The position numbers and the translations under genes are program-made. Source: a virus. From it: DNA of 64,000 bases. How positions within the stretch are numbered: position 1 is the first letter of the stretch; each line of letters opens with the position of its first letter. The DNA lies in the IMG/VR virus record IMGVR_UViG_3300027801_002517, positions 64,001 to 128,000 of that record, one strand, 5' to 3'. The notes under the pieces are model-generated. The model saw only the letters and a program-made list of their open reading frames with translations, searched no databases and was not told where the DNA came from. Below are positions 39,921-61,927 of the stretch, one piece after another.

Positions 39921-39921
39921 C

Positions 39922-41770: not shown

Positions 41771-41867
41771 ATAATGAAAAAAATATCATCCTGATATTAA
41801 TACACTTATAACCCACACAAAAACAAAAGTCACAAGCAGTTCAATTGTAATAATTACTATGTCTTCT

Positions 41868-42098: not shown

Positions 42099-42660
42099 AT
42101 ATATTCCGTTCTGTAATAATCTTATCCATATAAATATCGTGAGATGCTACTGGAATCTCTTCAAACATTTGACATTCAAACGCCAAGGCCACTAATGGTG
42201 TACCCTGTCGAGCATTCTCCAGCAGCTTATCATAGTATCCTTTACCGTGACCCATCCTCGCACCAGTAGCATCAAACCCTACGCCCGGCACCATTATAAG
42301 ATCTAATTCTTTTATGTCAACCTGTTTCTGAGGAAGACCACGCAATTCTTGAGAAGGCTCTAAGATACCATACATACCTGTTTCTAATTCGTCCATACTC
42401 TCAAGATGGAAAAGCTCTAGCTCTCCATCGTCATTACACCAAGGCACCACTATATTTTTGCCACTACTAAGTGCCTCTGGTAGAGCATGACGAGTCCTGA
42501 CCTCACTCCTTACATCAATATAAAACATGACAGCAGATGCATCGGCATATTCATATAGAGACATGAAAGTATCTACAATCGAACGACTTAGTTTGTCTTT
42601 GTCTTCTTGTTTGTTTCGGTTGTCATGGGCAGTTCGCCTCAGTTCATTTTTATTTATCAT
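42085..42660 (-). CDS. 5-formyltetrahydrofolate cyclo-ligase
   Basis: KNELRR, SEVRT, YGILEP, VPGVGFD..GARMGHGKGYYD, HDIYMD.IITE. Confidence 0.9.
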   Translation of the reverse strand: MINKNELRRTAHDNRNKQEDKDKLSRSIVDTFMSLYEYADASAVMFYIDVRSEVRTRHALPEALSSGKNIVVPWCNDDGELELFHLESMDELETGMYGILEPSQELRGLPQKQVDIKELDLIMVPGVGFDATGARMGHGKGYYDKLLENARQGTPLVALAFECQMFEEIPVASHDIYMDKIITERNIYGNV

Positions 42661-42685
42661 AGTATGGTACTCTTTGAATTCCTGT

Positions 42686-44110
42686 TTATACCGTTTGTAA
42701 AACTTTATTTGTATATTGTTCTTCAAACAATAGTTTTTGAGAATAGGTTTTTTTGTGACACTCTTTACACAACATTGTACAATTTTTCGGAACTGTTAAT
42801 CCTCCCTTACCATGAGGGATTATATGATGAGCATCCATATCATCTATGTCAAATTGCTCATCACAATCAGAACAGTATCCATCTTGTTTGTGGTATTGTT
42901 TTTTTCTATCTACTTCAGAAAATTTTCGAGATGGATCTTTATCTGTTTTGTCAGTACAACAATCAAGGTGATCGTGTAAAATTTTATTTTGTAGCCCTCT
43001 ATTGACTTTGGTATGCCCAGAAGTATTTACACGCAATGAGTATTCATCAAGATCATTTTTAACTTTGGTTGATTTTATCTCCGCTGCTGTCCTTATGTCT
43101 ACACTTAAGTCTTTTAGATGGTTTAGTAATTTTTCTTTATCAATTTCTCGACCTTCTAGTATCCAGTCAATAATTACAACATTTAATGCATAAAAATTTG
43201 AACCTTTTGCAAATCTAGTTGATTTAAGTCCTACTGTTTGATCAAAGAGAAATTTCATAATCTCTAAACTTTTCTTGATATTTTTTATAAGTTTGAACAT
43301 ATCTATATCTTCTTCATTGTTTTTAAAATATTTAAACACGTTCGCAACAGCCCACCCATTTAAATGTTCTTGATTATGAATGTAATATAAAAGTGCTGTT
43401 AAATATCTACCATCCCACTGTCGAATAACCGAGGATGTTGATGAGGCTTTAATAAGCATATCGGAATATGGTCCATCAACACCAGTAAATGGCCGGAGGA
43501 AATCCTTAACTAAGGGTGTATCTCTATATTTTGATCTTAGTTTTTCTTGATCATTAAGATTTTCGCTTTGATTATATGATTGAAATAAAGCATCGATAAG
43601 ATTTTTAATCTCAATCTCATTCACCCCATATGTTTCATATATAATTACAGTTATCTGCTTATCAAGAAAACTTTTTCGGTTCGACTCATTAACGTCTTCC
43701 CATTTCTTTGCTTCTAGTTTATCAATAAAAAGATCAGGTAGAGTCGATAACTCTTTAGATAAAGAATAAATGTTATGTATATAATCTTTTATACTAGAAG
43801 CTCTCTGTAGTCCATCAATTACTTCATAGTAAACTTCGCAAGCTTCCGGTAAAAGATTTTTGCGTATACCATACCAATTATCATCATATGGTTTTTTAGT
43901 TTCACTATCTCTATATCTTTTCACAAGATAAAGTGGGGGTATAGAAATTCCGCTCCAAATGGAGTTAATGAAAGCAATCTTTCTGTCGGCTGCCCATACT
44001 TCATCTCTTTGGTGATCAGGATTAAGAACATAGTCACCGCTATCTATCTTCTTTAATAGATTTTCAATAGAAATTTTTTCGTCTGAAAAATCATAGTTTG
44101 GGAGTTGCAT
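42686..44110 (-). CDS. DUF262 (ParB-like) + HNH nuclease, GmrSD-like
   Basis: PDHQR..VW, IPPLY, VIDGLQR, LNDQE; C-terminal CxxC...AHHIIPH..GG.T..NCTMLCKECH. Confidence 0.8.
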   Translation of the reverse strand: MQLPNYDFSDEKISIENLLKKIDSGDYVLNPDHQRDEVWAADRKIAFINSIWSGISIPPLYLVKRYRDSETKKPYDDNWYGIRKNLLPEACEVYYEVIDGLQRASSIKDYIHNIYSLSKELSTLPDLFIDKLEAKKWEDVNESNRKSFLDKQITVIIYETYGVNEIEIKNLIDALFQSYNQSENLNDQEKLRSKYRDTPLVKDFLRPFTGVDGPYSDMLIKASSTSSVIRQWDGRYLTALLYYIHNQEHLNGWAVANVFKYFKNNEEDIDMFKLIKNIKKSLEIMKFLFDQTVGLKSTRFAKGSNFYALNVVIIDWILEGREIDKEKLLNHLKDLSVDIRTAAEIKSTKVKNDLDEYSLRVNTSGHTKVNRGLQNKILHDHLDCCTDKTDKDPSRKFSEVDRKKQYHKQDGYCSDCDEQFDIDDMDAHHIIPHGKGGLTVPKNCTMLCKECHKKTYSQKLLFEEQYTNKVLQTV

Positions 44111-44123
44111 AATTCATCCTTCC

Positions 44124-45200
44124 TTAATTTTTATTTCTTAACATCTTTAAACAAGATTTACCAATGGCGGTGCCGAGGCCACAAGGAACGGCATTACCTA
44201 TCTGTTTGAACGCCTGTCCCTTTTTACACTTAAACATAAAAGTATCTGGAAAAGACTGTAGTCTAGCCAATTCCCTGACAGTCATATGTCTTCCTTTTTC
44301 ATAGTGGGTAAACACTGCACCATGATTTTCTTTAACTGTGTTACACGGTTTATCGGGATGACATTTCTGATTGGCCTCACCATATCCAGAATAACTATCA
44401 CCGTATTCAGTAGCCATAATTTTATCTGGGACCGATGGGTCAGTCTTATAAGCTCTGAACTCATGTGAAAATTCAATATCTTCCTCAATGTCTTTTAGGT
44501 CATCTATCGCATCTCTAACGGAAACCCATTTCTCCAAATCACCCGTACCAGACTCGTTGTGTGTCTCATCTGGAAAAAGAACCTTGTTCTTAGACGCTAT
44601 AATAATAACTCTCTCTCTGTGCTGCGGCACACCATAATTGGAAGCTTTTAATACTCTTGCTTCAGCGTTATAGCCTAAATCAACAAATAGGTCAACCCAT
44701 TTATCACAGACTGAGAATGTATATTCTTTATATTTTTTAAGTAACTTACCACTACTCAGCTTCTTTGAATCTTTATTGATCTGTTTAAAAGTATCATCTG
44801 GAATATCAGATTCAAAATGATACATAGAAGCAAGACCTTTGACGTTTTCAATAACGCAAACATCTGGATCTACTCTCTCCACAATATCAAAATAATCAAA
44901 ATACAATTGTCCCCGATCATCAAATGGATCTCGCTTACCAGCATTGCTAAATGCCTGACAAGGAATTCCACCAAGGATAACTTTTACTTCATTATCAATG
45001 CAGGCTTTTACAATAACATCTTTTATAGTTGGATCGGTAATACTTCCTTCGACTAAGTTACAATGAGGATGATTGAACCTGAATGTTGAACATGCTGGCC
45101 CATCAAACTCATTAGCGACTCTGACCTGTAAACCATCTACCTTATCCATACCATAAGACATACCCCCACAACCGGCGAATAAATCTAAAACGTTATACAT
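44124..45200 (-). CDS. DNA (cytosine-5) methyltransferase
   Basis: DLFAGCGG, GIPCQAFS, IENV, PQHRERV, RELARLQSFP, IGNAV motifs. Confidence 0.93.
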   Translation of the reverse strand: MYNVLDLFAGCGGMSYGMDKVDGLQVRVANEFDGPACSTFRFNHPHCNLVEGSITDPTIKDVIVKACIDNEVKVILGGIPCQAFSNAGKRDPFDDRGQLYFDYFDIVERVDPDVCVIENVKGLASMYHFESDIPDDTFKQINKDSKKLSSGKLLKKYKEYTFSVCDKWVDLFVDLGYNAEARVLKASNYGVPQHRERVIIIASKNKVLFPDETHNESGTGDLEKWVSVRDAIDDLKDIEEDIEFSHEFRAYKTDPSVPDKIMATEYGDSYSGYGEANQKCHPDKPCNTVKENHGAVFTHYEKGRHMTVRELARLQSFPDTFMFKCKKGQAFKQIGNAVPCGLGTAIGKSCLKMLRNKN

Positions 45201-49879: not shown

Positions 49880-50230
49880 TATAGGGTCATATTAGAGCAT
49901 AGCCGTTAAGCTTACCCCTAAAGTCCCTTAGTAATTTATATAGATTAAAACTCAAGTAATAAAAATTTCAATTCGTCTTTCGACGTGACCCACCAAGTTA
50001 CTCCTCAGTAGAGCTTGGATTCCCTTGAAAACTAATTACTTACGGCAAAGCTTGTGAAGCTATCCGGTCATCCCTTAACATCTTTACAATGATAAGTTAT
50101 TATTCTGTTTGGTTACAGAATGGGCCTGAGTTCTACGTTACTGTTATAACGCCCCTGATCAGATCTAAATTCACATTAATGGCAAGGTGAAATCCAGACA
50201 GGCTCTTACGCTACTGCCCCGTACCCTTCT
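49880..50230 (-). ncRNA. Candidate structured non-coding RNA (unclassified)
   Basis: ORF-free; several helices including CGTC-GAAA-GACG and G:U pairs favouring the minus strand. Confidence 0.4.
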
Positions 50231-50857
50231 TTATAATGATCCAAAAGGTGATCAATAAACTACATCTATCCAATGTATTATAGCTGCCTATTCACAAGAG
50301 TGATGGATTTATTGGTTTTTTCTGTGGTTTTCTTTTTTAATATTTTAATTGTGGGTTTTTCTCCCAATAGTGAGAATAATAGAAAACATTTCTGGGGATT
50401 ATTACCCAATATAGTTATACGTTTTATGGTTATTGTATGTCAAGGCTATCTTATCCTAAATATGCACTTTATCAATGAAAACAAAGCCCTAATAATACTA
50501 CTAATATAATGACTAATACAAGGATTACTGTTGACATGAGGATTTTTTAAGTTGTGATAAGTTTATAATTTCAACCACGACCCCATACAGCAAGCCAAAA
50601 CCCAGTAAAAACATTGGTGGAATTGATATTTCGGCCTCACTCGACGCGGTCGAACCGTGTGCATGTGCGGCCCAAATACGGCCTCTAGACGGCTGATTCT
50701 GGTGATTCATAAGACTCAAAAATGGGGCAAAAGTGTTTTTTTTTACGGGGAAACACTTCAACATTCTCGAAAAAGCCAGTGTTTTTGTCATTTTTGGGAA
50801 ATCGCTATATGAGACGATTAGCTGAGACACGGCCCAAATGAGGCGAAATGGCCCTTT

Positions 50858-51110
50858 TCGCTGACTATACGTTATCGGGCGATGCTTATAGATTGACTGG
50901 GACATCACCCCCTTTTCGCTGACTGTCAAACAACTGGCGAGTATGATAGATTGGGCTTGACACAGCAATGTAAAAATGCTATAATTCAAATAGTCCCAAA
51001 TCTCGCTGACTGTTGAACACCTGGCGATGCTATAGGATCAGATGGGACAAATGGTCCAGTTTTCGCTGACTGTCTAACAAGTGGCGATGCCCGAGGATCG
51101 GGCGGGACAA
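50858..51110. repeat. Four degenerate direct repeats TCGCTGACT-N11-GGCGA-...-GACA
   Basis: Copies start at 50858, 50916, 51003 and 51063. Confidence 0.8.
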
Positions 51111-51116
51111 ACGAAA

Positions 51117-51189
51117 TGGGTCCAGTAGGACTCGAACCTACAACCAACGAATTATGAGTTCGCTGCTCTAACCATTGAGCTATGGACCC
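51117..51189 (-). tRNA. tRNA-CAT, probably Ile2 (lysidine type)
   Basis: GGGTCCA/TGGACCC, anticodon loop CTCATAA; lacks initiator features. Confidence 0.85.
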
Positions 51190-51198
51190 CAACCTGAA

Positions 51199-51273
51199 TG
51201 ACCCTAGCGGGATTTGAACCCGCGTTGCTGGAATGAAAATCCAGTGTCCTAGACCTAACTAGACGATAGGGCC
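51199..51273 (-). tRNA. tRNA-Glu(TTC)
   Basis: GGCCCTA/TAGGGTC, CTGGA-TTTTCAT-TCCAG. Confidence 0.9.
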
Positions 51274-51279
51274 GCATAA

Positions 51280-51353
<74 letters not shown>

Positions 51354-51901
51354 CGTGGCTTATTTGGTGACCACCTCTTTTTCTAGCTGAACACCATTCA
51401 CCATCCCAACCAGTTAAGAATGTTCATCGCGAGGTAATTTCCATTACCGTCCGATTCCGCAATTATATCTTCTTCGTCTATGTCATACAACTCACCAGCC
51501 CCCAAAACTTCAACATTCTTGCGATGTGCTTCAAGTTCGGCAATTGCCTCGCCTTGTGATACTTCAGTTTCTTCGTCGATTTCGTCAAGTCTCATCTCAA
51601 TTCTCCACAGGATAAGGGGGATTTTCAAACAACACTCTATCATTCTCTTTCTTCAATGTCTATTTCGAGATAATCCCCGTCAAGGGAATCTCGTTGGGCA
51701 TCGATCACATTATCAAGAATGTAATCCCCACGATCATCTTCGTCAAGTGCCAACCACTGTTTGCCGTCGATAGTTTCCGGTCCTTCACTATCACCAATCT
51801 TGAAAAACAAAGTCTTGTCAGGATCTGCCACGACCCAACCAGAGAACTCAACCACAATGTTACTCATCTCAAAATCTCCAATAGGGGTAAAGGGATACTC
51901 C

Positions 51902-51930
51902 ATTATATCATATATCGTCAATAGAGCAAG
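51902..51930 (-). promoter_or_regulatory. Early promoter with an internal GACGATA box
   Basis: TTGCTC-16-TATAAT. Confidence 0.55.
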
Positions 51931-51968
51931 CCCAACAGTACACTAATTAACAAGATAACACGAATTGA

Positions 51969-52050
51969 TGTAAGTCGTTTGGTGGTAAGGAGTTAGGGAA
52001 ATCGGGGCGGGCCGCGTCGGCCCTAAGTCCTTTGGTGGCAAGGGTTTAGG
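51969..52050. repeat. 82-bp double-palindrome element, copy 1
   Basis: TGTAAGTCGTT-7-AAGGAGTTAGG / 24-bp GC-rich spacer / CCTAAGTCCTT-7-AAGGGTTTAGG. Confidence 0.9.
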
Positions 52051-52075
52051 TCAATTACTATTTTAAAGAAATAAG

Positions 52076-52110
52076 AAAACCCCGCCCGGCGAACGACAAC
52101 CGGGCAGGGC
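52076..52110 (-). terminator. Rho-independent terminator after the DUF932 gene
   Basis: GCCCGG...CCGGGC stem plus U-tract on the minus strand. Confidence 0.6.
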
Positions 52111-52124
52111 ACCCCTATTCTCAA

Positions 52125-53015
52125 CTATGCGATCAGTTCCAGAGCCAGTTTCTCAGCTTTGTGAACAGCCTGAGAATTCCCAGCTTTGAGAACCCTGTCG
52201 AAATCATTGTTGAATGACTTGCGTCGAGTTGCATCGTGCTGCTCGTATCCCTGCACGGCATTGTATGCAAGCCATGCGTTGGGATTCCGCAGGTCGAAAT
52301 CGACGTTACTACGCCGCATCTCACCACTCAAACGCTTGAGAATCAATTCTGTACGATTCTTGTGAACCGTCACCGCACGTTTGCCAGCATCCTCGACAGG
52401 CTCTGGATAGATCTCATTCAAGAAATCTCGCATGTCAACTGTCTGTTGACTCATTTGCTTGATCATGGCAGTCAGATCGCACCACGATTCTTTGAGCATT
52501 GAGAATGCTCCGATCAGTTCATCCATTTGACCACGAAGACCAGAAGTGTGACGAATTGATCGAGAAAACGACTCGACAGATTTCATCATTGACAGATTCA
52601 AACACATGTCACGGAAGAATCCAATCTCAGCTTTGAAGCCTCGACCATCATAACCACCGTTGACCATGAATCGCGGGAAGATGTTGTCACCACCGGCAAC
52701 ATTGAACATATCACGACGATCCTCATTCGAAGGTGCAAATTGAACAAAATGACCATTGCGAAAGTGGCAACGGACATTTGTATCACCGTCGAACGCTTCG
52801 GCAGCGGCTTCAGTGATTGCCAAAATGTCATCCGTATTGTGCGGAACATATCGGGCAGAAACTGATTTGCCAACACATTCGCTGTTGTCAGATCGGAACA
52901 ATCCGAAATGAGGCGTTCGCATATTGTCGGGGCCGTACAGTGGAAACTTGTCAACCGAAAAGTTGAAAGTGTTCTGGACGGTTTCCAGTGCGGTGTCAGT
53001 TGTTAAAGTCGTCAT
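52125..53015 (-). CDS. DUF932/DUF945-family phage/plasmid protein
   Basis: VSARYVPHN, NGGYDG, FRDMCLN, IRHT, NAWLAYNAVQGYEQH motifs. Confidence 0.75.
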   Translation of the reverse strand: MTTLTTDTALETVQNTFNFSVDKFPLYGPDNMRTPHFGLFRSDNSECVGKSVSARYVPHNTDDILAITEAAAEAFDGDTNVRCHFRNGHFVQFAPSNEDRRDMFNVAGGDNIFPRFMVNGGYDGRGFKAEIGFFRDMCLNLSMMKSVESFSRSIRHTSGLRGQMDELIGAFSMLKESWCDLTAMIKQMSQQTVDMRDFLNEIYPEPVEDAGKRAVTVHKNRTELILKRLSGEMRRSNVDFDLRNPNAWLAYNAVQGYEQHDATRRKSFNNDFDRVLKAGNSQAVHKAEKLALELIA

Positions 53016-53069
53016 TCTACGTTCTCCAAAAAAGGGGTTGTTTGCGACTCGTTGTCGCGTCATACAGGT

Positions 53070-53098
53070 ATTATACCTTAATTATCGGCAGTTGTATA
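53070..53098 (-). promoter_or_regulatory. Early promoter with an internal GCCGATAA box
   Basis: TATACA-17-TATAAT, overlapping TAAG-16-GCCGATAA. Confidence 0.6.
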
Positions 53099-53191
53099 GC
53101 TCAGCCTTAGTGATTAGGGCTTATTTCTCAAAGTTTTCCAAAGTATTTCGGCGGCAATCGGTAAAGATAGGGCAAGACATCCCAGAATCGT

Positions 53192-53273
53192 CGTAAGTCG
53201 TTGGTATCAAAGGAGTTACGACGCTCGCAGCCCGCCCCCGGCGTCCTAACCCCTTGCGGGGTAAGGACTTACG
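53192..53273. repeat. 82-bp double-palindrome element, copy 2 (inverted)
   Basis: CGTAAGTCGTT-GGTATCA-AAGGAGTTACG / 24 bp / CCTAACCCCTT-7-AAGGACTTACG. Confidence 0.9.
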
Positions 53274-53629
53274 GCGACGTTTTGCTGTCATTCCTCCCAG
53301 ATTAAGTCATCGTCCGTAATTTCCCCATTCTCGTCATCCACCCCAAACAGAGTATCCCAACAATCCCCACAAGTTCCCGAAATTAGTAATTCCCTCTCAT
53401 CTTCAGTAAGATAATACAAAACATCCTGAATCAATTCACCCTCCTGCCATTCCTTGTAGTCCGATGGTTTTACCCGAATACTATGTGCATTCGAACATTT
53501 CCAACATTCTACTTTGACATTATCCATTGCATCACCTGTTTTATTCATTGTCAGAATCATTGTACTTTACTCCAAAAATTACCACTGCGAACATAATAAA
53601 AATACACAAAAACAAATCACCGGCATTTT

Positions 53630-54400
53630 TCATGCGGTTTGTGCCTTCCCATAGCTAAACCTCTTTCCATCTTTTTTGAGTTGCTTGATTGCGTCCGCTG
53701 CCTCAGATCCTTTCGGTTGAATGCCATGAATAATAAGGGCAAAATCATCATTTCCCCAAAACGGATTTGCTGCGTGTGTGTCATCGTGATCGACTTCCAA
53801 ACCCAGCATATCGGCTTCCTCATAAGAGAACACTACTTTCGCAGATCGTAGACCATAGTCTACAATCATATCGTCACGGCGTCCACCATAACTTGCGGTA
53901 AGAATCAGATTATCGGGAATAATTTCCAGATTATCAACCCAATAAGGTAAAGACTTAGTATAAGCATAGAACAATCGGTCTGGATTCATGATTGCCGTTC
54001 TAATCCATGCTTCAAAGTATGCCGGGCTGAAGAAATCACCAGCAACGTGAATTCGGCAGATTCCCAGATTCTTCGGCATCTGGTCACGAATAATCGAAAC
54101 CATCTCACCAGCAGACTTACCACGCAAATTGTCAAAATTCTTCTTGCGAGAATTGTACACGTTCGTATATGTGGCTTCCTGTGATGCACTGAAACAGCGA
54201 AATTCTGTTTTCTTGCCGTCCACAACTTTCCGCTTACCATCTACAATTTTTACCTTACTCAAACATTGTTCAGCAAACGGACACGAGTGACCAGACAATA
54301 GATCGAACGAATAAACTTTACGCTTATTCTCAAGATATACTTGCAGATCAGGATGATCGACCATTGCTTGCAATTTGTTGTTGGCTTTTGAGAATGACAT
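53630..54400 (-). CDS. Gp88-like phage protein (Cys-rich, possible Fe-S)
   Basis: SCPFAEQC...CFSA, RIHVAGDFFS, FYAYTK motifs. Confidence 0.65.
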   Translation of the reverse strand: MSFSKANNKLQAMVDHPDLQVYLENKRKVYSFDLLSGHSCPFAEQCLSKVKIVDGKRKVVDGKKTEFRCFSASQEATYTNVYNSRKKNFDNLRGKSAGEMVSIIRDQMPKNLGICRIHVAGDFFSPAYFEAWIRTAIMNPDRLFYAYTKSLPYWVDNLEIIPDNLILTASYGGRRDDMIVDYGLRSAKVVFSYEEADMLGLEVDHDDTHAANPFWGNDDFALIIHGIQPKGSEAADAIKQLKKDGKRFSYGKAQTA

Positions 54401-54427
54401 AGTCGCTCCTCCAATAGGGGAAAAGTG

Positions 54428-54886
54428 TTACGCGGTGAATTGTACCACAACTTCGGAACCATAGCAATGGCCAATGGCCATATCCACGAATTTTGCACGT
54501 TCTATAGGTTCTCCGTTCGTATTTGCCAACACAAACGAATCGTATTTGTACGGGTTATAGGTGACTGGCTTGAAAGGTAGCGGCAACCGATTTTCCCACT
54601 GCTGTTTTGGATCACACCAAAAACCACGAACAAACGCATGAACATTCTTTTGAGCATTCTTCAACACTCGCAAACGTCCGGCTTGTGACACTATAAACTC
54701 AGCATCCTGCAAACAAATGTAATCTGTGTGAAATTGAACAATTCTGTTCTGCCGGATTGACCAGCAATCTTTGTGGAGATTTTTGTAAACTTCAATCGGT
54801 TTACTGAAATCCAGTTTGGTGCGACATAACTCAGCAAGTCTAGAATCCGTCTTATGAACATTAATACAATGAGTTTTACGCGGCAT
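54428..54886 (-). CDS. Conserved phage hypothetical protein
   Basis: VYKNLH...WSIR...VSQAGR.RV...KNVHAFVRG...YNPYK. Confidence 0.6.
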   Translation of the reverse strand: MPRKTHCINVHKTDSRLAELCRTKLDFSKPIEVYKNLHKDCWSIRQNRIVQFHTDYICLQDAEFIVSQAGRLRVLKNAQKNVHAFVRGFWCDPKQQWENRLPLPFKPVTYNPYKYDSFVLANTNGEPIERAKFVDMAIGHCYGSEVVVQFTA

Positions 54887-54918
54887 GGTCGTTCTCCGTT
54901 GAGGCTAAGATACTCCCC

Positions 54919-54947
54919 ATTATATCATATCGTCCATATGATGTCAA
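54919..54947 (-). promoter_or_regulatory. Consensus sigma70 promoter with an internal GACGATA box
   Basis: TTGACA-17-TATAAT perfect match. Confidence 0.85.
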
Positions 54948-55083
54948 GGACTTTAGTCAAAATTGGCTAACTCGCTAACTCACTGGCTGTACTATAAAAA
55001 CGCAACCCTTTAGGGTTAGATGGGACATCCCACACAATAGCAGGTGTGGTGCGAATGCCCAAGTTCTCAAAAATAACAATCGA

Positions 55084-55165
55084 CGTAAGTGTATGGTATC
55101 AAAGGACTTACGACAAAACCGGCCCGCCCCGCCCGCCCTAACCCCTTACGGGGCAGGGACTTACG
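55084..55165. repeat. 82-bp double-palindrome element, copy 3 (inverted)
   Basis: CGTAAGTGTAT-GGTATCA-AAGGACTTACG / 24 bp / CCTAACCCCTT-7-AGGGACTTACG. Confidence 0.9.
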
Positions 55166-56302
55166 GCGACACAACACAATTTACATGTCAACAATTTTCT
55201 TGGTCGAGAAACAGCGGGTGCCACCCCGAACCTCGTCAACGGTCAGATATGGACCATTCGGCCCCTTACCCTTACCAACCACAACACCACTTACATTCCG
55301 AAGAATGTTAAACTTTCCATGTCGTGGATACATAAACTTTACAGTGCTACCAATTCGCTTGTGTGTCTTAATCATTAAACTTCTCTTTCTACGGTTTTAA
55401 AAGATACTTTAAACTCATTTCCTGCCTTCTTAATCATAACACCGTCGTGCAGGATTTTAACAACGGTGCCAATCTCTAGCTCAGTTCCTACTTTAATTAT
55501 TGGTGTCTGATTCAAACTCACTCCTCATTAAAAATTGTGCTTGTTGTTCTTCCAATAACTCCATTGGAATAAAGTCCGGAAACATTTTTACCGCCCAATT
55601 TGCAGCCTCTGAGTTATCGACGAATAACCTTTCATCAAATGAGTCGCAAGGTGGCTTTACAAGTATTTCACTTCCCGTCGATGGTCGGATAAATTTGATA
55701 TGTGTATACATTCTGTAACCTTAAAAGTATTGTGGCAAATCGCCTAACATCATAGTTTTCTTTGGTTGTTCTTTTATAATGATTGTTGGCCAAACGTAGT
55801 ATGCTGGTCTGTGCATTCGGTATTGTGGAAAGTTAGTATAACCGCCGATCCAACTATAAAACACAGGCACAGGTTGAACATAGATCTTTTCAGGTTCTGC
55901 TGATTCAGCAATTCCACCCATGATACAAAACAAAGCAATAGAAAGCAAGAGATTTTTCATGGTTCGCGGGTTTCTCTAATAATGTACAGGAATGCCACTA
56001 GTGGCAGAAGTGAAAGCAAAACGGTCATAATAATAATTATTCCTCATTTTCTTTTGCTTCAATCGCTTCCAAATCACTTTTCAGACTTTCCAACTCACGT
56101 TTCTTGTCGTTCTTGATTCGGTTCAGCAAACTATCAGCCAGAATCTGTTTGTCTGAAATTGACATAGGCACGATGACTGTACTGCCGTCTTCACAACAAA
56201 TCTCTAAGTTACTCCAACAAGTAATGTGCTTCACGTTTCCAACAGTGTACGTCGTTTCAATCTTCATCTTCTCAATCTCCAAAGTAAGGTTTGTGAGTGT
56301 GT

Positions 56303-56656
56303 ATTGTAACACACTCAAAAGACAATGTCAAGTCTATTCCCAAAAGTTTCCAAGTTCAAATGAAAAACTAATCGAACCAAGAAAGACCCCCGAAGGGCGG
56401 GGTCTTAATTGTAACACATCCAATCTCAAAAGTCAAGTTCAGCGGCCATCAAATCCGCCAGATTGTCAAGTTCTTCCTGAAATTCTCTTTTCCGTCCGTC
56501 TTCCCATTCCTGCATGAATGCCATTTCTTCCATGTTGAAACAAAGTTGCTCGTTTGGGGTTTCTTCGCACTGAATCTCATCAAAACTGTTCATCGTGTCA
56601 ATCCTTCAAGTTGAAAAGTGTCTGAGTATTGTATCAGAACTCGCCTGATGTATCAA
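56303..56656 (-). promoter_or_regulatory. Three tandem sigma70 promoters (56303-56331, 56408-56436, 56628-56656)
   Basis: TTGACA-17-TACAAT, TTGACT-17-TACAAT, TTGATA-17-TACAAT. Confidence 0.75.
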
Positions 56657-56850
56657 GCCCGATCTGTGTATTTTTTCCAAACTTTCTTGATATATTTTTC
56701 AGAGCCGAAATGATGACATCCTACTGGCTCATCATTATGATTTATCCTGATGGCCCACTTTTTGCCGTAGTTGTAGAGTTTATAATCCCAGCCAGCGAGA
56801 TGATCTGGAGCCGTTGCGACGATTTTGGTTGTGTTGTTTTTCATAGTTGT

Positions 56851-56879
56851 ATTATACTACTATTATCGTCCAAAGTCAA
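56851..56879 (-). promoter_or_regulatory. sigma70 promoter with an internal GACGATAA box
   Basis: TTGACT-17-TATAAT. Confidence 0.8.
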
Positions 56880-56929
56880 TGCTGTTCATTACAAAAACAC
56901 ACAAATAATTAAAAGTTTTTAGATATTGA

Positions 56930-57011
56930 CGTAAGTCGTTACTACCAAAGGACTTAGGAATTTTGGGGCCGGGCTTCCTCGCCGTAAGTCGTTTGATACC
57001 AAGGGTTTACG
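56930..57011. repeat. 82-bp double-palindrome element, copy 4
   Basis: CGTAAGTCGTT-7-AAGGACTTAGG / 24 bp / CGTAAGTCGTT-TGATACC-AAGGGTTTACG. Confidence 0.9.
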
Positions 57012-57041
57012 TCAGCCGATCCGATTCCTTTAGGTGAGACA

Positions 57042-57155
57042 TTAGTGTAGGACAATTATTTCGAGAGCGATTCCAGCCAGTGCGATTGTAGCACCAGTCA
57101 GGAAGAATCCAACCGCAACCGATACGGCAAATACTAGGTCAGGACTGTTTTTCAT
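57042..57155 (-). CDS. 37-aa single-TM peptide (not in the ORF track)
   Basis: MKNSPDLVFAVSVAVGFFLTGATIALAGIALEIIVLH; AAGGA SD upstream. Confidence 0.55.
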   Translation of the reverse strand: MKNSPDLVFAVSVAVGFFLTGATIALAGIALEIIVLH

Positions 57156-57502
57156 TTTGTTTTTCCTTTGAGGGTGTGTGGGGTGCCATTGTTATCCTGT
57201 CTGGCTTCAGGTGTTGGTCGAATGCTATTCGCAACCGTATCGGTCACATTGTCGTTGTACCATGTCAGAGTATTTCTTGCGGCCTGCGACCCACTCGGGA
57301 TCAGTACAACGCCAGCAACTAAACTCGTCATCGTAGGCGATTGCTTTAGCACCTTGCAGCCACATAAAAGCCAGCATTTCCCGAATGCTCAAGAAAACGC
57401 GGTTTCCGTCTTTGTTTGGGATTTCGCAGGAAAATCGGTCGTTCCAAGATACTCCAGCCATTGTTCTACTTTCTGTTTTTCGTTCGTTGTTTGTGAGAGT
57501 GT

Positions 57503-57883
57503 ATTGTACCAGATAAGAGGTGGAAAATGCAAGGTCAATTGCAGGCTAATTATAAACATGGTCAAGAGAATCGGCGAATCCTGAGACTTCGTCGCCATCC
57601 TGATCGTTTCCGAAAAACTCGCCTGTAGTGGGATTGACTTCGTCAACGTGAATCCATCGGCCTTCGAAAACCGCATCCTGTCCAGCTTCAATACCCCAGT
57701 TCGGTGTAACTTCTTCGTTGGCCGTTTCGGCCTTCTTCGCTGTCCAGCGTGCTTGGCGACGTGCCCATTTACGGGCGGTTGCTTCTTTGATTTTGATTGC
57801 TTGCTCTTGACTTGTCATCTTGTTTCCTTTTGTGTTGTTGTTTGTCATACGTGTATTGTACTATAATTATCGACACACGTAAA
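57503..57883 (-). promoter_or_regulatory. Two sigma70 promoters (57503-57532; 57855-57883, the latter with a GTCGATAA box)
   Basis: TTGCAT-18-TACAAT; TTTACG-17-TACAAT. Confidence 0.6.
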
Positions 57884-57963
57884 GCCTGTCATCAGCATAT
57901 GGGCGTTAATTTCCAAAGTATTCCAAAGTATTTATGGCATGGAATTTGCTTGCGGAAAATTGA

Positions 57964-58045
57964 CATAACCCGTTGCTACCAAAGGACTTACGTCGCCGGG
58001 GGCGGGCCTTCCGTGTCGTAAGTCGTTACTGTGTAAGGGTTTACG
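57964..58045. repeat. 82-bp double-palindrome element, copy 5
   Basis: CATAACCCGTT-7-AAGGACTTACG / 24 bp / CGTAAGTCGTT-7-AAGGGTTTACG. Confidence 0.9.
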
Positions 58046-58078
58046 TCGGCTTAGCTGATTCCTTTGGGTAGGACAGCT

Positions 58079-58165
58079 CTACCCTGTCGAGATAGTAGCG
58101 AAGATTATTGCAATTATTATTCCTGAGAATACAGCAATGGTTTCAATCCTGTTTTGCTTACTCAT
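58079..58165 (-). CDS. 28-aa single-TM peptide (not in the ORF track)
   Basis: MSKQNRIETIAVFSGIIIAIIFATISTG. Confidence 0.45.
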   Translation of the reverse strand: MSKQNRIETIAVFSGIIIAIIFATISTG

Positions 58166-58419
58166 ACCCTACTCCGCTGCTGTGCCGAATTGTTCACAGT
58201 AGCTGTCAAATGCTGCGAGGTATCCGGTGTCAACATTCTCAATGCTCTGGATTGGTTGAGCAGGATAAAAGGGATTGTAATTGAAAGTCTGATTGACAAA
58301 ATCAATCTGATCTTCCCGAACACTTTGGTGATTCATTACCTGATCAGTGTCGAGATACTTAGCAATTACGTTGAAGCGTTTCATGTTATTTCCTTTGGTG
58401 GTGTGTTGTGTGAGAGTGT

Positions 58420-58900
58420 ATTCTACAGTTCAAAGCAGCGAATGTCAATCGCCTTGCCAAAAATCTTTGTGGTTTTTCGATGATGGTCGCGAGCGAAGAT
58501 GATAGCGATTTCTTCATTCTCAGCAGAGATGATGCCTGATGTAGAAACTTCGCTGTTACCTGAAAGCGGTACGATTGTGAAAGAGTAGTGAAAGCGTTTC
58601 ATTGTGTTGCCTTGTGTGTTGTTTGTTGTTTGTGATAGTGTATTGTACCATATGGTTCTGGTTGTTTCAACCCTAATTCGTGTAGATTTCGTAAGTATTG
58701 CAGTTTTTGTGAGATTTCTTGTCTGATACGTTTACTGTGAGTTTGTGTGTTGGTTGGGGAAGAAACACAGGTTTGTCTGATGCATGTACTGTCAGTTTGT
58801 GTGTTGGTCGTGGTAGTGGATTGATCATTGTGTTTCCTTTGTTGTGTTGTCTTTGTCTTGTGTCTCTAAGTATTATATCGGCATCATTGCCGTTTGTCAA
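58420..58900 (-). promoter_or_regulatory. Three sigma70 promoters (58420-58448, 58642-58670, 58872-58900)
   Basis: TTGACA-17-TAGAAT; TTGAAA-17-TACAAT; TTGACA-17-TATAAT (the last overlapped by GCCGATA). Confidence 0.8.
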
Positions 58901-58940
58901 TAGCTTTGCACAAGAAAATAAAAGATATTTCCCATATTGA

Positions 58941-59022
58941 CCTAAGTCATTGCTATCAAACGACTTACGTCGCCGAAAGCCCACTAGTATCGCTCTAAGT
59001 CTATACTGTACAACGACTTATA
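58941..59022. repeat. 82-bp double-palindrome element, copy 6
   Basis: CCTAAGTCATT-7-AACGACTTACG / 24 bp / TCTAAGTCTAT-7-AACGACTTATA. Confidence 0.88.
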
Positions 59023-59194
59023 CAAATATAGTGGTAGGGGTTTTATCTTCAAAGATAGAATGGTGTCTTGCTGTGGAAAAAGCCAGGGTGGTGCAAACAT
59101 AATTCACCAGCACCAATATCAATGTCCTACCCAATCTTACCCCCTCGCCCCTATTTATTTCGCTTGGTGTTTAGGTAGAGTCAAGATACAACCC

Positions 59195-59520
59195 GAGCAT
59201 ATAGCTACAACTGGTTACTACCAGTAGCTATTAACTTACCATCTGTGAGCGAACTGCAAAAGGATCATGATTACCACTTGATGTTTGGGAGGATGCTTAA
59301 ACCTCAACTCCTGAATTTTCAGTAAGTCCTCTGTCGCCAGAGCCTGATCCATTCTGTCCGATTGTTACTCTTATCGAGCAACGCTCGTAATTCTAATATG
59401 AGTACGGGTAATACTCATGCTAAACTCCAGACCATTCAGGTAATTTCTTTAAGCATTGCAGCTCGCCGGTCACACAACTGATTCGTCCACAGGACGAGAT
59501 ATTTGCCGGACATGGTTCAA
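59195..59520 (-). ncRNA. Candidate structured, pseudoknotted non-coding RNA (unclassified)
   Basis: ORF-free; 11-bp and 8-bp long-range helices, a GCGA tetraloop hairpin and at least four more hairpins. Confidence 0.55.
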
Positions 59521-59841
59521 AAAGAAATTTCCCTCTTGATAAGTCACTATCTATAATATCCACAAGTAACAGTTTTACAATGATTTTTTATGAAAATTTA
59601 CCATTTTAGAATCTTTTATCCATCAAAACTACCATTTCGTGTATATTACTATTAGGAGGTACAACATGAAAAAAGACCCAGAAGAAATTACAACTATAAA
59701 AACCGTCGTTGTTGCGAGAGCCACTGCTGATCTCTGCGATGAAATTCTCGATGATTTACAAGTTCCTGATCCACCAGATAAATCTATGGCTTCCCTAGTC
59801 GATGAGGCTGACGAATCCAAATTATCGAGGAGGAACGACGA

Positions 59842-60621
59842 GTGAAGAATAAACAAATCTATAATCATAGATCGCATTCACCAGCACGAGTCATTGATGA
59901 CGGTATTGAACTCATGTCACCTAAGAATGCTAATGACATAGCACCATCAGATATTGATTTTTTAAATAATTGTAATCTGTTAAGTGATACAATTCCTGCA
60001 GATACAAATTTTTTCTATTCGTTGCGATGTAATGATTCTACGACGGAAAAACTGCTTTTTCTTGAAACGGGCTTTGGGGAATTAAAACACAGAGACGGTA
60101 GAGTATTTCTACAACGAGAATATATTTTCACTGACTTTCACCCAGATTATAATGAAATCCCCGTCCCTACTAAGAATCATTTGAAGCCCCTGCCTGATTT
60201 TGTTAAAAACTGCATAATTTCCACACATTCACCAGCAGAATATCAAGAATTACTCATTGAAGAGCATTCTGTTGTATGTTCTATAGATAAATTTATCCCA
60301 ACAATAGTTCCCCTAGAGGAAGCCACCCTACTGGGTCGCCTTGATGGACGCATACAATCTATAGACAAAGATGAACTCAAGTTTATTCTGGGTGACAACA
60401 TTAAAATCGCCGTCGAGGAATCAAAAAGTCCCCTAAAGTTACAAACGGATGAATTTTCTGTAAATGGTAAGAATTCTATTATAATGACTGACCAAATTCA
60501 GTTAAGACCTATGAGATCAAGGCCAAAGCGATTTTCCGTAGGTTCCCTATATTACAATAGGGGTAAAAAGACATTTGAGTTTCATGACGGGGACAAATGG
60601 AGAACATTACTAACAGAATGA
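59842..60621 (+). CDS. Hypothetical protein
   Basis: Long ORF after the strand switch; C-terminal GSLYYN...FEFHDGDKW motif as in virion/fibre proteins. Confidence 0.5.
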   Translation: MKNKQIYNHRSHSPARVIDDGIELMSPKNANDIAPSDIDFLNNCNLLSDTIPADTNFFYSLRCNDSTTEKLLFLETGFGELKHRDGRVFLQREYIFTDFHPDYNEIPVPTKNHLKPLPDFVKNCIISTHSPAEYQELLIEEHSVVCSIDKFIPTIVPLEEATLLGRLDGRIQSIDKDELKFILGDNIKIAVEESKSPLKLQTDEFSVNGKNSIIMTDQIQLRPMRSRPKRFSVGSLYYNRGKKTFEFHDGDKWRTLLTE

Positions 60622-60645: not shown

Positions 60646-61155
60646 GTGCAAGTACCGGAAAACATGACAGAAGAAGAAACCGTTGAAATTATTCAGCGGG
60701 TTGTTGATCGCACAGCCCCTAAGTATACATTTCACGCATATACTATTGCGGATCTGAAGCAGGAGGCATTTATTATTTGTATGGAGGCATTGCCTCGTTA
60801 TGACGGGCTTCGACCACTGGAAAACTTTCTGGCCGTTCATCTTTCTAACAGAATGAAGAATTTTGTGAGGGACAACCACTTTACCCAAAGTGACGATCCT
60901 GTTCGTATTAATATAACGCAACCGGCTCAACTTGATGAATCTTATTATATGGAGTTTGATAAGAATAATATTACATATGAGGACATCGATTACCGCGACA
61001 TGGCAAAATTAATGGATATTCATATGCCGCCATCTATGCGGCTTGATTATCTAAAGATGATTAATGATGTCTATATTGCAAAGCCACGGCGGGATGAGAT
61101 TCAAATGATGATTGAGGATATATTAGAGGAGAATGGTTACTATGAAGAGGGGTAG
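60646..61155 (+). CDS. Sigma70-region-2-like protein (second phage sigma factor)
   Basis: DLKQEAFIICMEALPRYDG.RPLENFL..HLSNRMKNF resembles region 2. Confidence 0.6.
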   Translation: MQVPENMTEEETVEIIQRVVDRTAPKYTFHAYTIADLKQEAFIICMEALPRYDGLRPLENFLAVHLSNRMKNFVRDNHFTQSDDPVRINITQPAQLDESYYMEFDKNNITYEDIDYRDMAKLMDIHMPPSMRLDYLKMINDVYIAKPRRDEIQMMIEDILEENGYYEEG

Positions 61156-61927
61156 GATATCTAAAGAAGAAGAAAAATTTATAGAATCAAGTATGGGCGT
61201 TATGTCTATAGTTGATATCTCGGAAAAATTAGATAGAGACCCAGATAGTGTTCAGCAATTTATTAAGCGGAAATTCAAGGTCGGACTTTCTGATGAGGAA
61301 GAAGCGGCGTATGATTTGGAGGAGCGTCCTTATTGGCATGACCTAAAACAGCAATTTACCGATGATGAGTTGGTAATGTTTAAATATCACTGGTCAAGAA
61401 TCATTTCTCAGTTTAAAGATGATGTAATACCCACGGAAGAATTACAGGTAATTGATTTAATTAAGCTCGATTTGTTAATGAATAGGTCTTTGAAGGCAAA
61501 TAAGGAAAATTTAAATCAAATCTCGGCTTTTGAGGCTTTAGTTCAAGAGGAGAGAGCTAAGGATTCTGATCAGCAGGACAGAGATCATATTTTTAACTTA
61601 GAAAGACAGTGTGCTTCGCTAAAAGCGTCGATGGAGTCACTAAACCGCGATTACCGCGACCTTCAGGATAAAAAGAACAAGATGTTGAAGGAGATGAAGG
61701 CTACTAGGGAGCAACGGGTCAAAAGATTAGAGGACAGTAGGCAATCTTTTACGGGTTGGCTAACATATCTTATTAGTAATCCCGAACTTAGTAGGCAATA
61801 TGGTATTCAGATGGAAAAAATGAGACTTGCAATGTCAAAAGAGAAAGAAAGGTTAAGTTCATACCATAAATATGGAGATGGGCAGGTAGATCAACCATTT
61901 TTAACACCGGATACCGTCAAGGAGTAA
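61133..61927 (+). CDS. Hypothetical protein, N-terminal HTH plus coiled coil
   Basis: IVDISEKLDRDPDSV HTH-like segment; long heptad region. Confidence 0.45.
   Translation: MVTMKRGRISKEEEKFIESSMGVMSIVDISEKLDRDPDSVQQFIKRKFKVGLSDEEEAAYDLEERPYWHDLKQQFTDDELVMFKYHWSRIISQFKDDVIPTEELQVIDLIKLDLLMNRSLKANKENLNQISAFEALVQEERAKDSDQQDRDHIFNLERQCASLKASMESLNRDYRDLQDKKNKMLKEMKATREQRVKRLEDSRQSFTGWLTYLISNPELSRQYGIQMEKMRLAMSKEKERLSSYHKYGDGQVDQPFLTPDTVKE

What the first reader, a model, noticed from the sequence alone, without database searches (positions are those of the whole stretch)
51969..59022. Six rigid 82-bp double-palindrome elements partition the early region into promoter-bearing gene cassettes
Seen: copies start at 51969, 53192, 55084, 56930, 57964 and 58941. 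Each is two 29-bp dyads (consensus CGTAAGTCGTT-N7-AAGGACTTACG: 11-bp arms, 7-bp core) separated by exactly 24 bp of mostly GC-rich spacer. The dyad centres are therefore always 53 bp apart, about five helical turns. Sequence drifts between copies but the geometry never does. Copies 2 and 3 are inverted relative to 1, 4 and 5 (spacer CCCGCCCC versus GGGGC(C)GGGC), and the core GGTATCA of copies 2A/3A is the reverse complement of the 4B core TGATACC. All copies are intergenic, and each is followed 40-140 bp downstream by a strong promoter driving a block of small genes. Known: 11-bp arms around a 6-8-bp core is tyrosine-recombinase site architecture (dif/XerCD is 11-6-11), and T4-type phages shuffle early genes through repeated promoter stem-loop cassettes. 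No recombinase gene is in this window. Inference: either an undescribed cassette-shuffling system for host-takeover genes, or a cooperative four-half-site operator for a host or phage DNA-binding protein that gates early transcription or DNA entry.
Basis: partly seen in the sequence, partly recalled or inferred. Interest (0 to 1): 0.9.

Follow-up and report, generated by a model that had tools for sequence, protein, structure and literature searches.

The report
Paired palindromic operators before phage early promoters
Six copies of an 82-base element made of two palindromes around a GC-rich block sit at a fixed turn of the DNA helix upstream of the main early promoters of an uncultured 157-kb phage. 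The same palindrome marks promoter-type gaps in Planctomycetota chromosomes, so the elements are most likely docking sites for a DNA-binding regulator, probably a host one.

Summary
Twelve 29-bp dyads in six pairs, 53 bp start to start, are the only matches in the whole 157-kb phage genome. All lie in a 7-kb early region transcribed on the minus strand.

Each unit is intergenic and lies 39-136 bp upstream of a sigma-70-type promoter that also carries a nested CGATA box.

The dyad family is widespread: at least 120 IMG/VR stretches and 174 paired units. Spacing is fixed within a contig but differs between contigs (40-64 bp). Arm variation is not compensated, which argues against a hairpin. The distance from unit to -35 is periodic at about 11 bp, which argues for a protein on double-stranded DNA acting on the promoter.

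Single copies of the same dyad occur in Planctomycetota chromosomes (7-36 per genome, against 0 for a reversed control). They are almost always intergenic, and more often between divergent genes than convergent ones.

Related phages carry different palindromes at the same places. No recombinase or classical small DNA-binding regulator family was found in the phage.

Best reading: paired, helically phased operator or enhancer-like sites for a sequence-specific regulator, probably host-encoded. As a by-product they serve as recombination substrates. The site-specific cassette-shuffling reading is not supported.

The scan has noted phased palindromic operators at early promoters of other phages before.

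The parts
51969..52050 (-). Unit 1: distal dyad, GC box (GGCCCGCCCC on the coding strand), proximal dyad. It follows an intrinsic terminator and lies 39 bp upstream of a -35 box.
53192..53273 (-). Unit 2: GC box in the opposite orientation (GGGGGCGGGC on the coding strand). It starts 14 bp after the stop codon of gene 53288-53560 and lies 93 bp upstream of a -35 box.
55084..55165 (-). Unit 3: GC box GGGGCGGGCC on the coding strand; 136 bp upstream of a -35 box.
56930..57011 (-). Unit 4: directly after a small hydrophobic ORF (57042-57155); 50 bp upstream of a -35 box.
57964..58045 (-). Unit 5: directly after a small hydrophobic ORF; 80 bp upstream of a -35 box.
58941..59022 (-). Unit 6: the most degenerate copy (second dyad 17.9 bits, GC box decayed). 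It is the first unit after the strand switch and lies 40 bp upstream of a perfect TTGACA-17-TATAAT promoter.
58872..58900 (-). Unit-linked promoter P6, TTGACA-17-TATAAT, with a nested GCCGATA box.
57855..57883 (-). Unit-linked promoter P5, TTTACG-17-TACAAT, with a GTCGATAA box.
56851..56879 (-). Unit-linked promoter P4, TTGACT-17-TATAAT, with a GACGATAA box.
54919..54947 (-). Unit-linked promoter P3, TTGACA-17-TATAAT, with a GACGATAT box.
53070..53098 (-). Unit-linked promoter P2, TATACA-17-TATAAT, with a GCCGATAA box.
51902..51929 (-). Unit-linked promoter P1, TTGCTC...TATAAT, with a GACGATAT box.
52079..52110 (-). Canonical intrinsic terminator (12-bp GC-rich stem plus T run) just upstream of unit 1. 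It shows that the phage uses ordinary terminators where it needs one.
56383..56406 (-). Second canonical intrinsic terminator, inside the cassette between units 4 and 3.

Best explanation
Each 82-bp unit is a pair of binding sites on double-stranded DNA for a sequence-specific, probably dimeric, DNA-binding protein.

The two dimers sit about five helical turns apart, on either side of a stiff GC-rich block. The whole unit is kept in helical register with the -35 box of the first promoter of each early gene cassette. The proximal dyad centre is about 54-151 bp upstream of the -35 box.

Bound protein therefore acts on RNA polymerase at that promoter. It could be an upstream activator (enhancer-like), or a gate that shuts early transcription or ties it to the state of the host cell.

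The same dyad lies in promoter-type intergenic regions of Planctomycetota chromosomes, and the phage shows no recognisable small regulator. The protein is therefore most likely host-encoded.

As a side effect, the repeated unit-plus-promoter modules are substrates for homologous recombination. This keeps units uniform within a genome and makes the early region a mosaic.

Shown: the anatomy, its distribution, the phasing, the uncompensated arm variation and the host copies. Inferred: that a protein binds, that it comes from the host, and the direction of regulation.
For: - Only 12 dyads exist in the genome, all in the early region.
- In 79 units oriented by their promoter, TAA (positions 3-5), TT (10-11), AA (19-20) and TTA (25-27) are invariant or nearly so. 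The constraints are mirror-symmetric: position 12 is almost never C and position 18 is never G.
- Variable arm positions are not compensated. Position 9 of the proximal dyad is mismatched in 57 of 79 units and position 2 in about 40%.
- Arms are 76% identical between contigs whose shared early proteins are only 40-66% identical. Spacers are only 50% identical.
- Unit-to-(-35) distances cluster at about 16, 29, 39, 49.5 and 60 bp. Fourier power is 12-15 at period 11, and none of 1000 jittered sets reached it.
- The six window distances (39, 93, 136, 50, 80, 40) fall within one third of a turn.
- Host copies: at least 120 stretches in bacterial genomes, mostly Planctomycetota MAGs. There are 7-36 sites per genome against 0 for the reversed control, and 38 sites against 1 control in 151 genomes of the phylum.
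- In one complete chromosome, 19 of 20 sites are intergenic, with 6 between divergent genes and 1 between convergent genes.
- Relatives carry different palindromes at the same places in all copies: X-GC-X in L001, Y-GC-X in L005. Y also occurs in Planctomycetota genomes.
- No HTH_3, HTH_17, RHH_1 or AbrB domain is found in six frames of the phage.
Against: - No binding protein has been identified. Genes next to host sites are diverse, with no recurrent regulator gene.
- Host copies are patchy: 22 of 151 sampled genomes.
- In several MAGs the dyad sits inside longer multi-copy repeats or beside an integrase or IS transposases. It could therefore be a mobile-element feature rather than a host regulon.
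- Dyad-to-dyad spacing across contigs is not strictly an integer number of turns; 49-50 bp is common.
- Enrichment of outward-facing -35 boxes next to host sites is weak: 11 of 68 against 6.2 ± 2.1.
- Units and promoters may be copied as blocks, which inflates the phasing statistic.
- The phage has one untested candidate binder of its own, the HTH-like plus coiled-coil protein at 61133-61927.
Confidence: 0.55

Rival explanations
1. Same kind of site, but the binder is phage-encoded. One example would be the HTH-like plus coiled-coil protein translationally coupled to the phage sigma factor (61133-61927). It would shut off the early promoters once middle genes are expressed. Host-chromosome copies would then be unrelated or belong to mobile elements.
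For: - Lineage-specific replacement of the palindrome in all copies of a relative (X, Y, Z types) is what co-evolution with a phage regulator predicts.
- The 61133-61927 family has a conserved N-terminal helix-turn-helix-like segment and a long coiled coil, and it is present in many Z-type contigs.
- Some host copies lie beside an integrase or IS elements.
Against: - The putative recognition helix of that protein differs between Z-type contigs that share the same dyad (35% identity class).
- No Pfam DNA-binding family scores in the phage.
- Most host sites are next to housekeeping genes in Mb-sized chromosomes.
Confidence: 0.2
2. PeSL-like composite cassettes. The dyads and GC box would act as RNA hairpins that terminate or stabilise the upstream transcript, and the promoter restarts transcription. 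Their main evolutionary role would be recombinational shuffling of early genes.
For: - Units lie between the end of one cassette and the next promoter. Four of the six have no canonical terminator before them.
- The early region is hypervariable, and cassette order differs between relatives.
- Units are homogenised within genomes.
- In some contigs the GC box is a perfect GC palindrome.
Against: - Arms carry 2-4 uncompensated mismatches, including a constant C·C mismatch.
- No U tract follows the dyads.
- Predicted folds of the six copies differ, with z-scores from -0.1 to -3.4.
- The phage uses ordinary terminators elsewhere.
- Phasing with the -35 box has no RNA-level rationale.
- Host copies favour divergent over convergent gaps.
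Confidence: 0.12
3. REP/MITE-like selfish palindromic repeats that spread in both Planctomycetota chromosomes and their phages, with no regulatory role.
For: - In three MAGs the dyad is the centre of longer multi-copy repeats with inverted flanks. One genome has 33 copies with a poly-C tract.
- Some copies abut tRNA 3' ends, an integrase, or IS1595 and IS66 transposases.
Against: - Copy number is low in most genomes (0-7).
- No Y1 transposase is found in the phage.
- There is no GTAG/CGTC tag as in REPs (PMC3733652).
- Selfish insertion would not give a fixed helical phase to promoters. Nor would it restrict the copies to one promoter class (6 of 6 against 0 of 7).
Confidence: 0.08
4. Site-specific recombination sites (dif- or attC-like) for a tyrosine recombinase that excises and reshuffles cassettes.
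For: - The 11-7-11 architecture fits formally.
- Gene order between units varies among relatives.
- One host copy lies between an integrase gene and a tRNA.
Against: - No Phage_integrase-family gene is found in the 94%-complete genome.
- The central 7 bp are poorly conserved and have no fixed orientation.
- Host chromosomes carry 7-36 dispersed copies rather than one dif.
- The phasing with promoters is left unexplained.
Confidence: 0.04

Closest known systems
PeSL (promoter-early stem-loop) cassettes of T4-type phages (PMC2839356, PMC4122927)
   Same: Repeated composite motifs made of a palindrome plus a sigma-70-type early promoter. They flank small variable early genes in a hyperplastic region and are associated with mosaic gene order.
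   Different: PeSL stem-loops are terminator-like and short. Here there are two long palindromes with uncompensated mismatches around a GC box, no U tract, helical phasing to the promoter, and copies in host chromosomes. The phage is not T4-like: its TerL is only about 25% identical to any cultured phage.
Upstream activator or enhancer sites phased with promoters (from my own knowledge: CRP class I sites; Fis sites at rrnB P1; NtrC sites at glnAp2)
   Same: Dyad sites for dimers on one face of the helix, 60-150 bp upstream of the start site. Paired sites lie a whole number of turns apart, and distances to the promoter change in steps of one turn.
   Different: The dyad sequence matches none of these factors. 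The promoters are sigma-70/sigma-28-like, not sigma-54. The binding protein is unknown.
Stoperators of Cluster A mycobacteriophages, bound by the L5 gp71 repressor (from my own knowledge)
   Same: Many copies of one operator-type site spread over a phage transcription region. This early region even carries L5 gp82- and gp88-like genes.
   Different: Stoperators are 13-bp asymmetric single sites spread over the whole genome and bound by a phage repressor. Here the sites are 29-bp palindromes in pairs, found only upstream of six promoters, and no phage repressor was found.
KorB operators of IncP plasmids (from my own knowledge)
   Same: One palindrome repeated about 12 times, at variable distances upstream of promoters, acting at a distance as a global control of a mobile genome.
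   Different: KorB is a ParB-type protein encoded by the element itself. Its sites are single 13-bp palindromes.
REP/BIME/REPIN extragenic palindromes (PMC3733652)
   Same: Extragenic imperfect palindromes, sometimes in pairs, present in both orientations.
   Different: The copy number is much lower. There is no GTAG/CGTC tag and no RAYT in the phage. The elements are tied to one promoter class.

Membership tests
PeSL cassettes | Sigma-70-type early promoter is part of the repeated motif | tested here: met
   Six unit-linked promoters lie 39-136 bp downstream of the units. In relatives the median distance is 40 bp.
PeSL cassettes | Stem-loop that behaves as a terminator (well-paired stem, T run) | tested here: not met
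   Arms have uncompensated mismatches. The terminator scan does not call the units. Predicted folds are inconsistent.
PeSL cassettes | Located in a hyperplastic region with gene content differing between relatives | tested here: met
   Few early genes are shared and their order differs. Flanks are conserved while the early region is not.
PeSL cassettes | Recombination products (circles, indels) with junctions in the motif | not testable with these tools
Tyrosine-recombinase core site (dif/attC type) | Two about 11-bp arms around a 6-8-bp central region | tested here: met
   The architecture is 11-7-11, but this is a formal resemblance only.
Tyrosine-recombinase core site (dif/attC type) | Cognate recombinase encoded by the element | tested here: not met
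   PF00589 gives 0 matches in six frames of the 94%-complete genome; the control search hit 14 of 14 genomes.
Tyrosine-recombinase core site (dif/attC type) | Rearrangement breakpoints inside the central region | tested here: inconclusive
   Homology ends at or near units in L055/L163 and L058/L111, but at 70-80% identity the position cannot be fixed.
REP/REPIN | High-copy extragenic palindrome with a GTAG or CGTC tag and an associated RAYT | tested here: not met
   Copy number is 0-36 per host genome. The consensus has no such tag. PF01797 is absent from the phage. Host RAYTs were not tested.
Sigma-54 enhancer (bEBP upstream activating sequence) | Paired dyads in helical register about 100-150 bp upstream of the promoter | tested here: met
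   Spacing is 53 bp within a unit, and the distance to the promoter is periodic.
Sigma-54 enhancer (bEBP upstream activating sequence) | GG-N10-GC sigma-54 core promoter downstream | tested here: not met
   There are 4 hits with up to 1 mismatch in the genome, about the number expected by chance, and none lies downstream of a unit on the coding strand. Relatives L002 and L003 do carry TGGCAC-N5-TTGC-like motifs at the equivalent place.
Operator or activator site of a dimeric transcription factor | Symmetric conserved contact blocks with half-sites varying independently | tested here: met
   Column statistics on 158 dyads.
Operator or activator site of a dimeric transcription factor | Face-of-helix dependence relative to the promoter | tested here: met
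   The distance distribution has a period of about 11 bp, and no jittered set reached its power. The caveat is shared ancestry of unit-promoter blocks.
Operator or activator site of a dimeric transcription factor | An identified protein that binds the site | not testable with these tools
   No candidate emerged from neighbours of host sites or from the phage. Identification needs pull-down, EMSA or DAP-seq.

The most novel reading that the evidence does not exclude
The phage has built its early-promoter control elements out of the operator of a Planctomycetota global regulator. The host uses single sites; the phage uses cooperative double sites. Together with the nested sigma-28-like promoter boxes, this would let the phage read the host's cell state, for example swarmer against sessile cell, before committing to early expression. 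As the genome replicates, the double sites could also soak up the regulator and derepress its host regulon. Swapping the palindrome type (Z, X, Y) would then track host switches.
Probability: 0.15. Interest if true: 0.8.

Novelty: new variant of a known kind. Interest (0 to 1): 0.62.

Why it matters
This clade of large aquatic phages has no cultured member, and almost nothing is known about transcription control in Planctomycetota or their viruses.

A 29-bp motif that is strongly conserved in non-coding DNA across divergent phages, and shared with host promoter regions, offers three things:
- a concrete bait for finding a host or phage regulator;
- a sequence-based way to link uncultured phages to Planctomycetota hosts;
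- an example of early-gene control through paired, helically phased upstream sites rather than operators that overlap the promoter.

It also shows how repeated regulatory modules can make an early region mosaic without any dedicated recombinase.

Tried and rejected
- **Rfam.** The scan of 50000-60500 found only tRNAs.
- **RNA folding.** Folding the six units on the coding strand gave no common structure.
- **Closer relatives.** megablast against cultured phages found nothing but a tRNA match. TerL is only about 25% identical to any cultured phage.
- **Recombinases and transposases.** PF00589 and PF01797 are absent from the phage.
- **Phage DNA-binding proteins.**
  - Pfam on 41 early and neighbouring ORFs gave no DNA-binding family.
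  - Six-frame searches for HTH_3, HTH_17, RHH_1 and AbrB gave none.
  - PDB sequence searches with 59842-60621 and 61133-61927 were uninformative.
- **Host regulator via neighbours.** Genes next to host sites have no common theme and include no recurrent regulator.
- **Promoter boxes near host sites.** -35 boxes beside host sites are only weakly enriched.
- **Sigma-54 promoters.** Hits in this genome are at chance level.
- **Breakpoints in the cores.** No pair of relatives is close enough to place them.
- **X palindrome in hosts.** 1 hit in 151 Planctomycetota genomes.
- **Literature.** Searches on Planctomycetota phages or a matching motif found nothing.

Full report
**1.

- Reading the sequence and the repeat finder show six units at 51969, 53192, 55084, 56930, 57964 and 58941. 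Each has two 29-bp imperfect palindromes 53 bp start to start and a 24-bp GC-rich spacer.
- A degenerate dyad pattern gives 13 matches in the window against 0.73 expected by shuffling.
- A weight matrix built from the 12 dyads, scanned over the whole 157,369-bp genome (window = bases 64001-128000), recovers exactly these 12 at 17.9-38.3 bits. The next best site scores 6.5.

**2. Context in the window**

- The window is AT-rich (about 35% GC). Genes run on the minus strand up to about 59.2 kb, where transcription diverges.
- Read on the minus strand, each unit lies after the end of one gene block and before a sigma-70-type promoter. The number of bases from unit end to -35 is 39, 93, 136, 50, 80 and 40 for units 1-6.
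- Only two canonical intrinsic terminators are present: 52110-52079, just before unit 1, and 56406-56383.
- The genes between units are small and mostly unknown. The recognisable ones are DUF932, Pfam GP88 and an L5 gp82-like protein. A sigma-factor-like gene lies across the strand switch.
- On the coding strand all six units share one dyad polarity: the proximal dyad reads ...TCCTT-N7-AACGA.... Only the GC box flips. It is GGGGCGGGC-like in units 2 and 3 and the complement in units 1, 4 and 5.

**3. The element family is widespread, and its geometry is fixed only within genomes**

- In those loci I found 489 dyads of at least 14 bits and 174 paired units.
- Of 31 contigs with three or more units, 26 have all spacings within 1 bp. 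Between contigs the modal spacing is 53 (19 contigs), 50 (10), 52 (6), 49 (3), 40-42 (5) or 64 (2).
- Spacers are 78% GC. They are more alike within a contig than between contigs (58% against 50%; none of 2000 label permutations reached this). Arms are nearly as conserved between contigs (76%) as within them (79%).
- These contigs share only a few early proteins with the window, at 40-66% identity. The arms are therefore under strong constraint across the clade.
- The clade has no cultured member. Its large terminase is about 25% identical to the nearest phage in the collection.

**4. A site on double-stranded DNA, not a hairpin**

- In 79 units oriented by their downstream promoter, TAA (positions 3-5), TT (10-11), AA (19-20) and TTA (25-27) are invariant or nearly so. 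The constraints are mirror-symmetric: position 12 is almost never C and position 18 is never G.
- The variable arm positions are not compensated. Position 9 of the proximal dyad is a C·C mismatch in 57 of 79 units. Position 2 is mismatched in about 40%. Alternative half-sites (AAGTC, AAACC, AACCC, AACTC) pair with consensus partners rather than with complementary ones.
- RNA folds of the six window units differ from copy to copy, with z-scores from -0.1 to -3.4. Rfam finds nothing.

**5. Helical phasing with the promoter**

- Distances from unit end to -35 in the oriented set peak at about 16, 29, 39, 49.5 and 60 bp, and each peak draws on several contigs.
- Fourier power at period 11 is 12-15, and none of 1000 jittered sets reached it.
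- The six window distances, although they range from 39 to 136 bp, fall within about one third of a turn (my arithmetic). By my rough estimate the chance of this is about 0.025.
- Such phasing is expected for a protein that must face RNA polymerase. An RNA element, a recombination site or a selfish repeat has no reason to show it.
- Caveat: units and promoters may be copied together, so the data points are not fully independent.

**6. The same dyad is a host-genome motif**

The record titles are dominated by Planctomycetota: Planctomycetaceae, Pirellulales, Phycisphaerae and Gemmataceae.
- The hits fall into two classes:
  - Low-GC short contigs with paired units, which are phage DNA binned into MAGs.
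  - High-GC chromosomal DNA with single dyads.
- In five such genomes, matches with up to 3 mismatches number 7, 20, 36, 33 and 14, against 0 for the reversed pattern.
- In an even sample of 151 genomes of the phylum there are 38 sites in 22 genomes, against 1 control hit.
- In the complete 7.5-Mb chromosome G002, 19 of 20 sites are intergenic. Six lie between divergent genes and one between convergent genes.
- Neighbouring genes are diverse: aconitase, an ECF sigma factor, lipid A acyltransferase, RNR, HSP20, CsrA and others. No regulator gene recurs.
- Some copies abut tRNA 3' ends, an integrase or IS transposases. In three MAGs the dyad is the core of longer multi-copy repeats. One genome has 33 copies of dyad plus poly-C, and in the 16 loci I fetched these lie 64-422 bp upstream of LRR/LDL-repeat paralogs.
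- Runs of G or C next to the dyad recur in hosts, echoing the phage GC box.

**7. Relatives swap the palindrome, not the architecture**

- Loci found through the GP88-like protein (about 60% identity) lack the Z dyad but have analogous units at the same places:
  - L001 has CTTATTGAGAC-N3-GTCTCAATAAG pairs, again with a 24-bp spacer holding GGGGGCGGGGG or its complement.
  - L005 has CTGCCAAAATGGCAG plus a GC box plus the L001-type dyad, in all six copies. One of these is at a position orthologous to an L001 unit.
  - L002 and L003 have TGGCAC-N5-TTGC/GTGC motifs plus a GC box.
- The L005 distal palindrome also occurs in Planctomycetota genomes: 19 exact hits against 1 control, 13 of them in one genome. 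It sits beside a Z dyad in a high-GC contig.
- The L001-type dyad was found once in 151 genomes.
- A change in all copies at once calls for a trans-acting partner, concerted evolution, or both.

**8. Cassette shuffling**

- Gene order differs between relatives. The window has gp82-GP88-g53560-[unit]-DUF932. L062 has [unit]-GP88-[unit]-gp82-[unit]-g53560-DUF932.
- Between related contigs the early region is the part that loses nucleotide similarity, and homology often stops at or just before units.
- This fits a hyperplastic early region in which repeated unit-plus-promoter modules act as crossover points, as proposed for PeSLs (PMC2839356, PMC4122927). It does not require a dedicated system.
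- No tyrosine recombinase or Y1 transposase is encoded. Breakpoints could not be placed in the cores.

**9. Who binds?**

- No HTH_3, HTH_17, RHH_1 or AbrB domain is found in six frames of the phage. None of 41 early and neighbouring ORFs scores a DNA-binding family.
- The only candidate I saw is 61133-61927. It overlaps the end of the sigma-like gene and has an HTH-like N-terminus and a long coiled coil. Its putative recognition helix varies between contigs that share the Z dyad.
- Together with the host copies, this tilts the balance towards a host protein, but nothing is shown.

**10. Verdict**

- The units are real, non-random, and conserved across a large uncultured phage clade linked to Planctomycetota.
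- The best-supported mechanism is paired, helically phased binding sites for a sequence-specific regulator acting on one class of early promoter. Recombinational mosaicism is a consequence.
- This is a new variant of a known kind, namely operator or enhancer arrays and PeSL-like modules at phage early promoters.
- The scan has reported phased or lineage-specific palindromes at early promoters of other phages. What is particular here is the double-dyad-plus-GC-box geometry and the sharing of the dyad with host chromosomes.

Noticed in passing
window 51902-58900 (six unit-linked promoters): All six unit-linked promoters carry a [G/T]NCGATA[A/T] box between -35 and -10. None of seven other early promoters does; those are TGnTACAAT types. 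In relatives L001-L005 the same promoters read TAAAGTTT-N16/17-GCCGATA[A/T], which resembles a sigma-28 (FliA/SigD) promoter nested inside a sigma-70 one. The lead came from earlier first-reader notes.
   Followed up: partly
L002:1600-1650, 3125-3158, 7657-7690, 9603-9636; L003:1840-1900, 4330-4390: In two relatives the place of the dyad units is taken by TGGCAC-N5-TTGC/GTGC (GG-N10-GC, a sigma-54 core promoter pattern) followed by a GC box. These occur in both orientations relative to the early genes.
   Followed up: partly
G004 contig C13 (loci L140-L143, L157, L249 and others): A 5.6-Mb contig labelled Latescibacterota has 33 copies of the dyad fused to a poly-C/G tract of 12-16 bases. In 16 fetched loci it lies 64-422 bp upstream of paralogous LRR plus LDL-receptor-repeat proteins. 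This looks like a phase-variable control region.
   Followed up: partly
L154:4575-5990: In a Phycisphaeraceae MAG, a tyrosine integrase gene is followed directly by a dyad and then by the 3' end of a tRNA gene. Five other host dyads also abut tRNA 3' ends.
   Followed up: partly
L216:4700-4760: The L005-type palindrome CTGCCAAAATGGCAG lies 2 bp from a Z dyad in a 67%-GC host contig, between divergent genes.
   Followed up: no
window 61133-61927 (+): This protein has a conserved N-terminal HTH-like segment and a long coiled coil. It overlaps the end of the sigma-factor-like gene (60646-61155) by 23 bases and is conserved in many related contigs. It could be a regulator or a small terminase.
   Followed up: partly
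window 50852-51111 (-): Four or five copies of a 58-87-bp-spaced repeat (CC..TTTTCGCTGACTGT..AACA..TGGCGATG) lie just upstream of the tRNA-Met/Glu/Asp cluster. A similar word (TAGCCAGCGAAAAG) recurs in L002.
   Followed up: no
window 57042-57155 and about 58079-58165 (-): Two very small hydrophobic ORFs (about 28-37 aa) end immediately before units 4 and 5, with a conserved AAGGAATC..GC.GA linker.
   Followed up: no
window 57890-57935 and 53120-53150 (-): An 11-bp direct repeat TACTTTGGAA(A) occurs twice between unit and promoter at the two promoters with longer linkers (P5 and P2).
   Followed up: no
window 58719-58816: Two tandem 54-bp copies (84% identical) lie inside the first early ORF after promoter P6.
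   Followed up: no
window 38606-45200: A C-5 cytosine DNA methylase, a GmrSD-like N-terminal domain and an HNH endonuclease are among the ORFs downstream of the early region (Pfam hits from a pooled scan, not assigned to single ORFs). The window also encodes a tmRNA at 36074-36341 with tag AKTTSFALAA.
   Followed up: no
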